In this document: positions 38,488-60,972 of the stretch, in pieces
Numbering within the stretch: position 1 is the stretch's first letter
How the letters are laid out: every line of letters begins with the position of its first letter
Source of the DNA: a virus
Taxonomy: Duplodnaviria; Caudoviricetes
Strand: one strand, 5' to 3'
Length of the DNA stretch: 64,000 bases
Virus record (IMG/VR): IMGVR_UViG_3300049198_000021
Location: 32,001 to 96,000 of that record
Program-made: the position numbers and the translations under genes
The notes under the pieces: model-generated
Told to the model about the DNA's origin: nothing
Seen by the model: the letters and a program-made list of their open reading frames with translations, nothing else
The model's database searches: none

Positions 38488-38680
38488 CCTTAACAAAGGC
38501 CAAATTTGGCCCGTTAACCATATTCGTTAAGGTTAACGGGCCACCTCAGGACCATTAACCATTTCCGTTAAGGTTAACGAAACGAGGATTCCGGCCGTTA
38601 ACCATATTCGTTAAGGTTAACGGATTCCCTCCACGCGTTAACCTTAACAAACTCCACCACTTCGTTAACCTTAACAGGGG
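38484..38680. repeat. dense cluster of GTTAAC / TTAACCTTAAC / TTAACCAT units
   Basis: More than 12 TTAA half-sites, including duplicated CGTTAACCATATTCGTTAAGGTTAAC. Confidence 0.8.
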
Positions 38681-38865
38681 ACCCATTGCTCCACGGCTCT
38701 GGGTCCCTTCGTTTGCGTCCAGCCGGGACCCGAGCCCACAGATCACCGGCCGGGACCCGAGCCCACAGATCACCGGCCGGGACCCTGACGCTCAGAACAC
38801 AGGCCGGGGTCCCTTTTTCTACGACCTCCGGGACCCTACGCGTCAGGCCATAGGCCGGGGTCTCG
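38677..38865. repeat. GGGACCC-containing tandem and inverted repeats
   Basis: CCGGGACCCGAGCCCACAGATCACCGG x2 plus further GGGACCC/GGGTCCC. Confidence 0.75.
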
Positions 38866-39254
38866 ATTTACGATTTCCTCCACCCCAGCACCAGCCGCTC
38901 AGACAGCCTTCAAGCCTGTTTGCTCCATATCTTGGGCACTAACCCCGATAAGGCTCAAGATAACGAGCAGTCGGCACCAGCCGAAGCTCACCGATCGCCG
39001 GCTCCCATCACGCCCAACTCCCACCACCCCAACCAGACGCCCCGCCGTAGAGCCGGATCGACCACTGACTCTTTTCGCGTTTTTACGATGAACTTTCGCG
39101 TTTTTACCGTGGAGTAAGTCGTTGATATATCTCATGGTAGCATCTAAACTTCCAGTCTACCCGATAAGCAAGTTAACTCAAGCCCTGCCGGCCGAGGTGG
39201 AGCCCGGATCGAGACCCGACAGTATGGATGACGGTCATTTTGACTACCAGCCGC

Positions 39255-39375
39255 CTAAACTTGCGAAAGAATCGCGTTTTGGAAGATAATTTTCGCCGAA
39301 AATCGGCTATAAATGCCTGAAAATGCTCATTTTTCGTTAAAATGTCGGTGAAAATCGACCGATTCAGCCAAAATG
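39255..39375. other. helically phased A/T tracts (predicted bent DNA)
   Basis: Tracts at about 39257, 39266, 39277, 39289, 39299, 39311, 39320, 39330, 39339, 39351 (about 10.4-bp period). Confidence 0.6.
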
Positions 39376-39504
39376 GCGGTGAATCCAAGCCGTTTTAATC
39401 CCGCTCAGCGACATTCTGGCTGATCCAGTGATCACCGAGCCCGGCTAAGCCTGTTGGACGCTCCAGCGGCTCCCAGCTTCGGCTCAGCCATGATCGATCG
39501 ACTT

Positions 39505-39667
39505 TATGGATCGAGGCCATTTTGCTTTCGTATGGATCGAGGCCATTTTATGGATCGATCTCGTTTTATGGATCGAGGTCATTTTGCCTTGCTATGGATC
39601 GAGGTCATTTTGCCGGCCGTATGGATCGAGGCCATTTTGCCCTGCTATGGATCGAGGCCATTTTGCC
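39505..39667 (+). repeat. tandem repeat TATGGATCGAGGYCATTTTGC x7
   Basis: Seen directly; one copy is degenerate; 0-6-bp linkers. Confidence 0.9.
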
Positions 39668-40058
39668 TACGCGGCGCGTGACCCCTCCCGGAGGCCCCTT
39701 CCGCGCCGGTCCCGGTAAGGTTAACGGCCCATTAACCTTTCTCCACCAGTAAGGTTAACGAAATCGGTCAATTTGTTAAGGTTAACAGCGCGTTAAGGTT
39801 AACAAACCCCTAATTTACTGCTCGTTAACCTTAACGAATATGGTTAACGGGCCATTAACCATGTTTGTTAACGTTAACGACTCGTTAAGGTTAATATGCG
39901 GAGCGATTTCGTTAAGGTTAACAGATTCGGGGCATCCGTTAACGTTAACGAGGTCTCCCCTCCCCGTTAACCATTGATCTGGAAAAAGTGCTTGACCGAA
40001 TCGGTTGCTTCTGCGACTCAGGATGCACGGCGAATCACCGCCGCTTGGAGACGACCTA

Positions 40059-60509: not shown

Positions 60510-60629
60510 TTCCTTAACGGAATAGGGGAATTTGTTAAGGTTAACCCGAATTAAGAATAAAGTGGAAAAAGTGCTTGACCGAATCGGTTAACCATCCTAG
60601 AAACGAATCAACAGCAACGGAGACACACC

Positions 60630-60842
60630 ATGAAGATCAAGATCAAGACCACCGCCCGCTACACCGCCAAGCGCAAGGCTGCTATCATCGCCGACGTGGA
60701 CAACGGCACTACCACCCTCGAAGAGGTTTGCAGCCTGCACAACATCACAAGCGAAGAGTTCGACGGCTGGCGCAAGTCGCTGGACCGCTCGGGACAGCAG
60801 GGGCTTCGGATCACCCGGCTGCAACACTACCGGGCAGCATAA
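60630..60842 (+). CDS. sciP: SciP-like CtrA inhibitory protein (DUF1153)
   Basis: RYTAKRKAAII..V.NG...LEEVC....ITSEEF..W...LDR.G..GLRITRLQHYR aligns gaplessly with recalled SciP RWVxRRKAEVV..V.GG...LEEAC....LTxEEF..W...IDRHG..GLRxTRxQxYR. Confidence 0.85.
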   Translation: MKIKIKTTARYTAKRKAAIIADVDNGTTTLEEVCSLHNITSEEFDGWRKSLDRSGQQGLRITRLQHYRAA

Positions 60843-60972
60843 GGGAAGGGGCTTCGGCTCTTTTTCTTTTGCCTTTAACCCAGTGTTAAGGTTAACAAGT
60901 CAACTGAATTAGTTAACTAATTAGCTGGAAAAAGTGCTTGACCGAATCAGCGAATCGGCCTAGACCCAAGCC

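What the first reader, a model, noticed from the sequence alone, without database searches (positions are those of the whole stretch)
60630..60842. Phage-encoded SciP homologue inside a CtrA-box regulon
Seen: a 70-aa protein matching the SciP/DUF1153 core but lacking the host N-terminal extension, in its own cassette. Known: SciP binds CtrA and blocks CtrA-activated transcription (pili, flagella, division genes, ccrM). Inference: the phage both reads and rewrites the cell-cycle circuit, giving feedback on its own promoters, receptor shut-off or a division block. With the CtrA and GANTC sites this is the best candidate for an undescribed system.
Basis: partly seen in the sequence, partly recalled or inferred. 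Interest (0 to 1): 0.92.

Follow-up and report, generated by a model that had tools for sequence, protein, structure and literature searches.

The report
Phage-borne minimal SciP-like regulator gene
A 176-kb phage of Erythrobacter-type bacteria carries a real, conserved 70-residue gene that is a shortened, divergent relative of SciP, the host protein that silences the master regulator CtrA; it sits among about 32 phage promoters full of CtrA/SciP-type DNA words, so the phage probably tampers with that circuit, but no binding or effect has been shown.

Summary
ORF 60630-60842 (+), 70 aa, matches Pfam DUF1153 (E 3.5e-20, 72 bits against a cut-off of 23.5) over the C-terminal two thirds of the profile only. 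It has its own promoter, ribosome site and terminator, and it evolves under purifying selection.

It is not an orthodox SciP:
- It scores 68 bits against the 100-bit NCBIfam SciP cut-off; host SciP scores 141.
- It lacks the host N-terminal arm of about 30 residues.
- It carries fixed changes at near-invariant host positions (W to Y, Y to H, R to L/E).
- With ten other short proteins from phage-like contexts (and one of unchecked context) it forms a clade apart from the sampled bacterial SciPs.

The SciP ChIP-seq word RTTAACCAT occurs 31 times (0.39 expected), always in or beside the cassette array. It lies 26 bp upstream of the -35 in 12 promoters. In this gene's own promoter alone it lies inside the -35/-10 spacer. 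Canonical TTAA-N7-TTAA boxes are few and absent from this cassette.

I found no published phage SciP, but this scan has noted similar genes on other phage DNA. Verdict: a new phage-borne variant of a known family, with inferred function.

The parts
60534..60545 (+). GTTAAGGTTAAC element, two TTAA half-sites 2 bp apart. It is shared by 26 of 32 cassette promoters, here 41 bp upstream of the -35.
   Evidence: Pattern GTTAASSTTAAC: 48 matches against 0.01 expected; distances to the -35.
60556..60574 (+). A-rich block (AAAGTGGAAAAAGTGC type) directly upstream of the -35. It is conserved in nearly all cassettes and may be an UP-like element (inference).
   Evidence: List of 32 cassettes anchored on the -35.
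60575..60603 (+). Housekeeping-type promoter: -35 TTGACC (60575-60580), 17-nt spacer, -10 TAGAAA (60598-60603).
   Evidence: Read from the sequence. The same module occurs 32 times, on the + strand only, between 39992 and 62536. The E. coli-consensus scan does not call it because the last base of the -10 is not T.
60581..60585 (.). GANTC (GAATC) abutting the -35. A second GAATC lies at 60605-60609, just after the -10.
   Evidence: GANTC density roughly doubles across the array.
60587..60595 (+). GTTAACCAT (CtrA half-site, identical to the SciP ChIP-seq word) inside the -35/-10 spacer. This is the only one of 32 promoters with that placement.
   Evidence: offset +12 here against -26 in 12 other promoters. 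The placement is kept in related contigs L003, L004, L006 and L009. The motif definition comes from PMC4083442.
60619..60624 (+). Ribosome-binding site GGAGAC, 5 nt before the ATG.
   Evidence: the same RBS occurs in most cassettes.
60630..60842 (+). SciP-like gene, 70 aa, DUF1153 helix-turn-helix core.
60841..60868 (+). Terminator-like hairpin followed by a T-rich tail (TTGCCTTT), which closes the cassette.

Best explanation
The gene encodes a minimal, phage-adapted member of the SciP/DUF1153 family: a three-helix HTH core plus the conserved basic tail GLRxTRxQxYR, without the host N-terminal arm. It is made from a host-RNA-polymerase promoter, probably early in infection (the timing is inferred). 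I think it most likely acts as SciP does, by joining CtrA and/or CtrA half-site DNA of the RTTAACCAT type and damping transcription there. Two targets follow. One is the phage's own cassette promoters, many of which carry that word 26 bp upstream of the -35; this would give a timed shut-off or cell-state gating of the array. At its own promoter the word lies in the spacer, which would give direct negative autoregulation. The other target is host CtrA-activated genes. Shown: homology, fold, selection, cassette anatomy, motif enrichment and geometry, and the presence of CtrA and SciP in the host clade. Inferred: binding to CtrA or DNA, the direction of the effect, and the timing.
For: - **Family and fold.** DUF1153 E 3.5e-20; the best NCBIfam model is 'CtrA inhibitor SciP', E 5e-19. 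A profile that includes it hits the two solved DUF1153 structures, 2JRT and 2OA4, at E 1e-25 and 4e-23. The AF2 model has three helices (pLDDT 74.5) and its top Foldseek match is 2JRT.
- **Shared residues.** Fifteen positions that are near-invariant in bacterial SciP are kept in the phage clade, including the whole C-terminal G.GLR.TR.Q.Y stretch.
- **Arginines.** Numbering back from L81/L84/I89 of Caulobacter SciP (PMC11882793), the arginines at positions 35 and 40 correspond to R10 and R15 here, and both are present. That these two residues matter for CtrA binding is my recollection of Gora et al. 2010, which is not held.
- **Selection and spread.** dN/dS is 0.03-0.39. Homologues occur in the cultured virulent Erythrobacter phage XM05, in seven close IMG/VR contigs and in three further phage-like contigs.
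- **Context.** RTTAACCAT, the SciP ChIP-seq consensus in Caulobacter (PMC4083442), occurs 31 times against 0.39 expected. Genome-wide, 31 of its 32 copies lie in or just upstream of the array. It sits at -26 from the -35 in 12 promoters and at +12 only in this gene's promoter. The related array in XM05 shows the same enrichment.
- **Precedent.** A skewed distribution of CtrA sites and CtrA control of phage promoters have been shown experimentally in other alphaproteobacterial phages (PMC9437464).
- **Host side.** An Erythrobacteraceae genome encodes both CtrA (426 bits against a cut-off of 350) and a full SciP (141 bits).
- **Dependence on the host.** The phage has no CtrA-type, GcrA or CcrM-type gene of its own.
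Against: - It fails the SciP equivalog cut-off, 68 against 100 bits.
- The N-terminal arm is absent. In the host model this arm is a confident beta-hairpin followed by LPPxxT, and it is conserved across bacterial SciP, so it is presumably functional.
- Host-invariant W, R-Y and L are fixed as Y, (E/L)-H and I in the phage clade.
- The R40 equivalent is I or V in XM05, P0014 and P0009.
- The phage clade is separated from bacterial SciP by a long, well-supported branch, so the function may have shifted.
- The repeated motifs are parts of one duplicated cassette, so their numbers are not independent evidence of selection.
- Even for Caulobacter SciP the mode of action is disputed: protein-protein only, DNA binding, or both.
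- In XM05 the homologue has no promoter of its own, and the promoters of L094 and L095 lack the spacer word.
Confidence: 0.45

Rival explanations
1. It is a CtrA-independent phage repressor or activator. The HTH core binds one of the TTAAC-rich cassette words (GTTAAGGTTAAC or GTTAACCAT) by itself and regulates the array, and its SciP ancestry says nothing about its present partner.
For: The protein is an HTH fold with net basic charge. It also matches HTH_Tnp_1 and HTH_28, which are DNA-binding domains. The phage clade is long diverged from SciP and has altered helix 2 and the turn after it. GTTAASSTTAAC occurs 48 times against 0.01 expected, is not a canonical CtrA box and has no known host binder. 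The gene and the array co-occur in XM05, L003-L009, L094 and L095.
Against: The enriched words are precisely CtrA half-sites and the SciP ChIP word. The tail conserved with bacterial SciP argues for a shared partner. P0050 (L096) lies in a phage-like context without any such array.
Confidence: 0.2
2. It is an anti-SciP decoy. A truncated SciP core occupies the SciP site on CtrA, or on CtrA-DNA, but lacks the arm needed for repression. It thereby protects CtrA-activated phage promoters from the host's own SciP.
For: The protein lacks exactly the conserved N-terminal arm while keeping the core and tail. The host clade has a full SciP that would otherwise target RTTAACCAT promoters. Most cassette promoters place the word upstream at about -60 from the start site, a position more typical of activation (inference).
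Against: Nothing is known here about what the arm does. The spacer placement in its own promoter fits repression better. There is no direct evidence.
Confidence: 0.15
3. It is a leftover HTH of an insertion-sequence transposase (IS3/IS66 OrfA type) with no regulatory role.
For: There are weak hits to HTH_Tnp_1 (28.8 bits), the IS3 transposase model and IS66 TnpA and to the PHROG transposase family. JGI names two homologues 'transposase-like'.
Against: The DUF1153 score is far higher (72 bits). No transposase catalytic ORF or inverted repeats lie nearby. The gene has a regular cassette promoter and terminator, is under purifying selection, and is conserved in many phage contigs at the same place in the array.
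Confidence: 0.03

Closest known systems
SciP of Caulobacter crescentus and other Alphaproteobacteria (Pfam DUF1153 PF06627; NCBIfam NF051866 'CtrA inhibitor SciP')
   Same: It shares the HTH core and the C-terminal GLRxTRxQxYR tail. Identity to Sphingomonadales, Hyphomonadaceae and Terricaulis SciP is 44-53% over about 62 residues. The arginines corresponding to Caulobacter R35 and R40 are present. Two of the three Lon-degron hydrophobic residues are kept (L84 as L59, I89 as L64).
   Different: It has 70 residues against 91-99. It has no N-terminal beta-hairpin and LPPxxT arm, and no Sphingomonadales C-terminal helix. W becomes Y, R-Y becomes L-H, and L81 becomes Q. It scores below the equivalog cut-off, forms its own clade, and is encoded by a virulent-type phage behind a phage cassette promoter.
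Phages with skewed CtrA-binding-site distribution ('lytic deferment': vB_BsubS-Delta, phiCbK, Cp1R7A-A1; Mascolo et al. 2022, PMC9437464)
   Same: CtrA-type words are concentrated in promoter regions of one part of the genome, including a repeat-rich, gene-poor region of about 1.5 kb at 38490-39990.
   Different: Here the words are mostly half-sites and relaxed boxes built into a standard cassette. CtrA binding is untested. That paper describes no phage-encoded SciP: it scanned only for SciP binding motifs and found no positional skew.
GcrA homologue encoded by phiCbK-like Caulobacter phages (Gill et al. 2012, as cited in PMC9437464)
   Same: It is a precedent for a phage carrying a copy of a host cell-cycle transcription factor.
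   Different: It is a different regulator family. This phage has no GcrA, CcrM-type or CtrA-type gene.
Solved DUF1153 structures 2JRT (Rhodobacter sphaeroides RHOS4_12090) and 2OA4 (SiR5)
   Same: The profile matches them at E 1e-25 and 4e-23. The AF2 model's best Foldseek match is 2JRT (probability 0.97, TM 0.56).
   Different: They are full-length bacterial proteins of 95-101 residues with the N-terminal arm, and no function was assayed in those entries.

Membership tests
Pfam DUF1153 (PF06627) | HMM score above the gathering threshold | tested here: met
   72.4 bits against 23.5, E 3.5e-20, profile positions 25-87 of 87; the genome search gave the same result.
Pfam DUF1153 (PF06627) | Three-helix HTH fold as in 2JRT and 2OA4 | tested here: met
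   The AF2 model has helices at 13-24, 30-36 and 41-58, pLDDT 74.5. The top Foldseek hit is 2JRT, though its E-value is weak because the domain is small. The sequence profile hits 2JRT and 2OA4.
SciP, CtrA inhibitor (NCBIfam NF051866 equivalog) | Whole-protein score at or above the curated 100-bit cut-off | tested here: not met
   68.2 bits. Host SciP scores 140-141 bits; the four other short homologues scanned (XM05_97, P0009, P0014, P0050) score 52-64 bits.
SciP, CtrA inhibitor (NCBIfam NF051866 equivalog) | Conserved N-terminal arm (hairpin of the V-x-G-P-x-G-x-P-L-T type followed by LPPxxT) | tested here: not met
   The arm is absent and there is no upstream coding capacity. The host model shows a structured hairpin at residues 12-20.
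SciP, CtrA inhibitor (NCBIfam NF051866 equivalog) | Near-invariant core residues of bacterial SciP | tested here: inconclusive
   Fifteen are shared (R10, K16, A17, G26, C34, E43, W47, G55, G58, L59, R60, T62, R63, Q65, Y67). Fixed departures are W to Y (position 11), R to L/E (36), Y to H (37) and L to I (39).
SciP, CtrA inhibitor (NCBIfam NF051866 equivalog) | Direct binding to CtrA and inhibition of CtrA-activated transcription | not testable with these tools
Alignments for host CtrA (A3) and the phage protein (A1) were prepared but could not be run.
SciP, CtrA inhibitor (NCBIfam NF051866 equivalog) | Groups within bacterial SciP in a tree | tested here: not met
   Eleven short proteins (ten from phage-like contexts plus this one) and P0095, whose context was not checked, form a clade with SH-aLRT 99. 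The 63 labelled Sphingomonadales SciP rows form a separate clade, also at 99. This is a quick tree on 99 columns with long-branch warnings.
SciP, CtrA inhibitor (NCBIfam NF051866 equivalog) | C-terminal Lon degron hydrophobic residues (Caulobacter L81, L84, I89) | tested here: inconclusive
   L84 is kept as L59, I89 as L64, and L81 becomes Q56. Degradation was not testable.
IS3/IS66 transposase N-terminal HTH (PF01527) | HTH followed by, or next to, a transposase catalytic ORF within an IS | tested here: not met
   The HTH_Tnp_1 hit of 28.8 bits overlaps the stronger DUF1153 hit. The neighbouring ORFs are small cassette genes with no transposase.
CtrA-site-skewed ('LPEG') alphaproteobacterial phages (PMC9437464) | CtrA-type sites concentrated in promoter regions of one genome segment | tested here: met
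   31 of 32 RTTAACCAT, 96 of 98 GTTAASSTTAAC and 43 of 46 KTAA-N7-TTAA matches in 176.5 kb lie at 64-96 kb of the genome. The caveat is that canonical TTAA-N7-TTAA occurs at only 9 places in the window.
CtrA-site-skewed ('LPEG') alphaproteobacterial phages (PMC9437464) | CtrA binds the sites and regulates the promoters | not testable with these tools
   This needs EMSA and reporter assays.

The most novel reading that the evidence does not exclude
A clade of large Erythrobacter/sphingomonad phages has evolved an arm-less SciP that, together with host CtrA, turns a standardised array of more than 30 early promoters into a cell-state-gated, self-limiting programme. CtrA half-sites at -60 would read the host state, and the phage SciP would then switch the array and its own spacer-site promoter off, while also silencing host CtrA-activated surface-appendage genes. 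This would be a phage-encoded anti-activator of an alphaproteobacterial master regulator.
Probability: 0.22. Interest if true: 0.8.

Novelty: new variant of a known kind. Interest (0 to 1): 0.6.

Why it matters
Phages that read host CtrA are a recent discovery (lytic deferment, 2022), and the only published phage copy of a cell-cycle regulator that I found is the GcrA homologue of phiCbK-like phages. A phage-made SciP would be the first viral protein aimed at CtrA's transcriptional output. It would link a viral gene directly to the open dispute over how SciP works, whether through contact with CtrA or through DNA at RTTAACCAT. It is also a natural 'minimal SciP' that shows which parts of the protein are dispensable. 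A cultured relative exists (virulent phage XM05-1 on Erythrobacter sp. JL475), so the idea can be tested directly. Without that test it remains a well-founded annotation plus a hypothesis.

Tried and rejected
- **Complex prediction.** Complex prediction of host CtrA (alignment A3) with the phage protein (A1) was unavailable and nothing was folded, so there is no computational test of binding.
- **Genome scan.** The search for related loci on genome contigs with alignment A1 failed for want of a conserved stretch; it was repeated with A2.
- **Papers not held.** Tan 2010, Gora 2010 and Gora 2013 are not held. What I say about R35 and R40 is therefore from memory. Only the numbering could be checked, against L81/L84/I89 in PMC11882793.
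- **Literature.** No paper pairs DUF1153 with phage. The 33 papers holding SciP, phage and CtrA include none on a phage-encoded SciP among those I read. The XM05 paper does not mention CtrA or the cell cycle.
- **Other regulators.** A search of the phage genome for GcrA, N6/N4 methyltransferase (CcrM type) and OmpR-type winged helix (CtrA type) found none.
- **Neighbouring genes.** Pfam found nothing in 20 other array ORFs, so no second host-regulator mimic was seen in those sampled.
- **Longer form.** A longer protein from an upstream start is rejected.
- **Transposase remnant.** Rejected; see the rival explanations.
- **Recent capture from the host.** Not supported. Identity is only 44-53%. 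Erythrobacteraceae SciP has L where the phage keeps the usual C, and the phage proteins form a separate clade.
- **Full-length SciP in viral contigs.** Whether the full-length SciP genes on four IMG/VR contigs (L010-L013) are truly viral remains unresolved.

Full report
**What the window is.** The window is bases 32001-96000 of a 176,504-bp IMG/VR virus record that CheckV rates complete. Its nearest cultured relative is Erythrobacter phage XM05 (PV416404, 152 kb), with patchy 83% DNA identity. XM05-1 is described as a virulent siphovirus of Erythrobacter sp. JL475 (PMC12014285).

**The observation.**
- ORF 60630-60842 (+) encodes 70 residues.
- Pfam DUF1153 matches at E 3.5e-20 (72.4 bits, cut-off 23.5). 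Residues 6-68 align to profile positions 25-87 of 87.
- The best NCBIfam model is NF051866 'CtrA inhibitor SciP' (E 5e-19), but at 68.2 bits it lies below the curated 100-bit cut-off.
- The frame is open for only 17 codons upstream, with no start codon there, and that stretch is the promoter. The short form is therefore genuine.
- The gene is a complete cassette: -35 TTGACC (60575-60580), 17-nt spacer, -10 TAGAAA (60598-60603), GGAGAC five bases before the ATG, and a hairpin with a T-rich tail at 60841-60868.
- Against homologues in related contigs, dN/dS is 0.03-0.39.

**Relatives.**
- The word-indexed search found eight close proteins of 68-70 aa.
- The exhaustive search found 1653 proteins at E of 0.001 or better. 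After a few short forms, the list is bacterial-length proteins that match near their C-termini.
- Three further short forms (P0009, P0014, P0050) lie on contigs made of strings of tiny ORFs, mostly on one strand and almost all without a Pfam hit, which is a phage-like context.
- Seven IMG/VR contigs carry copies that are 87-99% identical.
- Among 50,697 deposited phage genomes only XM05 has a homologue. It is XM05_97, 58% identical and annotated as hypothetical.
- The best matches in bacterial genomes are almost all Sphingomonadales, with some Hyphomonadaceae and Terricaulis, at 44-53% identity.
- Those host proteins are 99 aa (93 aa in Terricaulis) and nearly invariant within the order. They carry about 30 extra N-terminal residues and, in Sphingomonadales, about 10 extra C-terminal residues.
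- A host SciP scores 141 bits on NF051866. The four other short homologues scanned score 52-64 bits and this gene 68, all matching only profile positions 28 or 32 to 90.
- In a maximum-likelihood tree (189 rows, 99 columns, quick search), eleven short proteins, this one included, plus one of unchecked context (P0095) form a clade with SH-aLRT 99. The 63 labelled Sphingomonadales SciP rows form a separate clade, also at 99. The tool warns about long branches, so the position of the phage clade within the family is not resolved.

**Structure.**
- The AF2 model (pLDDT 74.5) has three helices, at 13-24, 30-36 and 41-58, and a low-confidence basic tail.
- Its best PDB match is the DUF1153 NMR structure 2JRT.
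- A profile that includes the phage protein hits 2JRT and 2OA4 at E 1e-25 and 4e-23.
- The model of a host SciP adds a confident N-terminal beta-hairpin (residues 12-20) and a C-terminal helix. The phage protein lacks both.

**Residue comparison.**
- Shared with at least 85% of the bacterial sequences: R10, K16, A17, G26, C34, E43, W47, G55, G58, L59, R60, T62, R63, Q65 and Y67. The tail G.GLR.TR.Q.Y is essentially intact.
- Fixed differences of the phage clade at host-invariant positions: W to Y (position 11), R to L/E (36), Y to H (37), L to I (39) and V to I (19, 20).
- PMC11882793 names L81, L84 and I89 as the Lon-degron residues of Caulobacter SciP. Counting back from them, Caulobacter R35 and R40 correspond to R10 and R15 here.
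- I recall that R35 and R40 were the residues mutated by Gora et al. 2010 to break the interaction with CtrA. That paper is not held, so this is a recollection and not a result.
- The R40 equivalent is I or V in the XM05 subclade.
- The degron positions read Q56, L59 and L64 in the phage protein.

**Context.**
- A module reading TTGACC-GAATC, 12 nt, TAGAAA-C-GAATC, about 10 nt, GGAGAC occurs 32 times between 39992 and 62536, always on the + strand. Each copy follows a terminator and precedes one to three small ORFs.
- The upstream elements are strongly over-represented:

| Word | Matches in window | Expected by chance |
|---|---|---|
| RTTAACCAT | 31 | 0.39 |
| GTTAASSTTAAC | 48 | 0.01 |
| KTAA-N7-TTAA | 45 | 0.63 |

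- Across the whole genome these words are confined to this 32-kb stretch, apart from one to three stray matches each.
- They have a fixed geometry relative to the -35: KTAA-N7-TTAA at -63 in 11 promoters, GTTAASSTTAAC at -53 in 13, and RTTAACCAT at -26 in 12.
- Strict TTAA-N7-TTAA occurs at only 9 places in the window. Four of them cluster at 39721-39888 and none is in this gene's cassette.
- (G/A)TTAACCAT(A/G) is the consensus that Fumeaux et al. 2014 derived from SciP ChIP-seq in Caulobacter. They describe it as holding half a CtrA box. The same passage sets out the unresolved dispute over whether SciP acts through CtrA only or also contacts DNA (PMC4083442).
- This gene's promoter differs from the rest. 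It lacks the -63 box and the -26 word, and it is the only promoter with GTTAACCAT inside the -35/-10 spacer (60587-60595).
- That placement is kept in four related contigs whose upstream sequence has diverged. It is absent from the more distant L094 and L095, which nevertheless have the same promoter type. In XM05 the homologue is the second gene of an operon.
- XM05, L003-L009, L094 and L095 all show the same array with the same words. L096 (P0050) has none.
- These copies arose by duplication of one module, so the counts show a shared design and not independent selection at each site.

**Host side.** An Erythrobacteraceae genome (Qipengyuania xiapuensis, reached through L079) encodes CtrA (L102:1066-1758, NF045991, 426 bits against a cut-off of 350) and a full SciP. 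A CtrA orthologue was found at E of 1e-60 or better in 28 of 41 sampled genomes of the class. One of those genomes, G041, is unpublished and nothing here rests on it. The phage itself has no CtrA-type, GcrA or CcrM-type gene, so any reading of CtrA or GANTC methylation must use host factors. Twenty other array ORFs have no Pfam family. The SciP-like gene is the only recognisable one among those sampled.

**Interpretation.** Membership of DUF1153 is secure. Membership of SciP proper is not established: the protein is below the cut-off, lacks the arm, has changed invariant residues and forms its own clade. A failed membership test does not rule out SciP-like action. The conserved tail, the arginines, and the embedding in an array built around the SciP/CtrA half-site word make a SciP-like mode of action the best single reading (about 0.45). 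In that reading the protein associates with CtrA and/or CtrA half-site DNA and damps transcription. The phage array and host CtrA-activated genes would be its targets, and its own promoter would be negatively autoregulated through the spacer site.

The one computational test available, complex prediction against controls, could not be run.

**Comparison with what is known.** CtrA-site skew in alphaproteobacterial phages, CtrA control of their promoters, and a GcrA homologue in phiCbK-like phages are all published (PMC9437464). That paper scanned phage genomes for SciP binding motifs and found no skew, and it reports no phage-encoded SciP. I found no paper that does.

Within this scan, notes on other DNA describe the same kind of gene: e1-5618368, on a related large phage, and e1-5341156, an 'arm-less' SciP-like gene in a megaphage. 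The phenomenon is therefore recurrent. Those notes are unchecked leads. My classification is a new variant of a known kind: a phage-borne, truncated SciP clade.

Noticed in passing
window 38490-39990: This is a gene-poor region of about 1.5 kb just upstream of the cassette array, packed with repeats. It holds 2.7 copies of a 41-43-bp unit (TTAACCAT, 5 nt, GTTAAGGTTAAC), 3.2 copies of a 27-bp unit, 3.9 copies of a 26-bp unit (TATGGATCGAGGCCATTTTGCC type), 12 GTTAASSTTAAC words and four perfect TTAA-N7-TTAA boxes. It resembles the CtrA-site-dense intergenic region reported for vB_BsubS-Delta and could be a regulatory hub or a replication origin.
   Followed up: partly
window 39992-62536 (each of 32 promoters): Every cassette promoter carries two GANTC (GAATC) sites at fixed places, one abutting the -35 (TTGACC-GAATC) and one just after the -10 (TAGAAA-C-GAATC). 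On the other strand they read C-GATTC-G. The phage has no CcrM-type or GcrA gene, so if methylation matters it must be read through host CcrM and GcrA.
   Followed up: partly
L010, L011, L012, L013 (IMG/VR contigs): Four viral-classified contigs carry full-length SciP genes (91-105 aa) within 4-5 kb of a contig end. L010 has a C5 DNA methylase and an ATP-dependent DNA ligase beside it. Whether these are prophage cargo or host flank is unresolved.
   Followed up: partly
L045, L073, L077-L080, L087 (Erythrobacteraceae SciP loci): SciP of Erythrobacteraceae-type genomes (Qipengyuania, Altererythrobacter, Croceibacterium, Pelagerythrobacter) and three related metagenome bins has L (E-V-L-E-R-Y) where other SciPs and the phage clade have a near-invariant C. 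This argues against recent capture of the phage gene from such a host.
   Followed up: no
L002:5817-6153 (Erythrobacter phage XM05, genes XM05_98 and XM05_97): In XM05 the SciP-like gene (64 aa) has no promoter of its own. It starts one base after the stop codon of the preceding 46-codon gene, which suggests translational coupling. The cassette arrangement therefore varies within the phage group.
   Followed up: no
window 40835-62414 (20 sampled array ORFs): None of 20 cassette ORFs of 66-185 aa has any Pfam match at E of 0.01 or better. The array is almost entirely orphan genes.
   Followed up: partly
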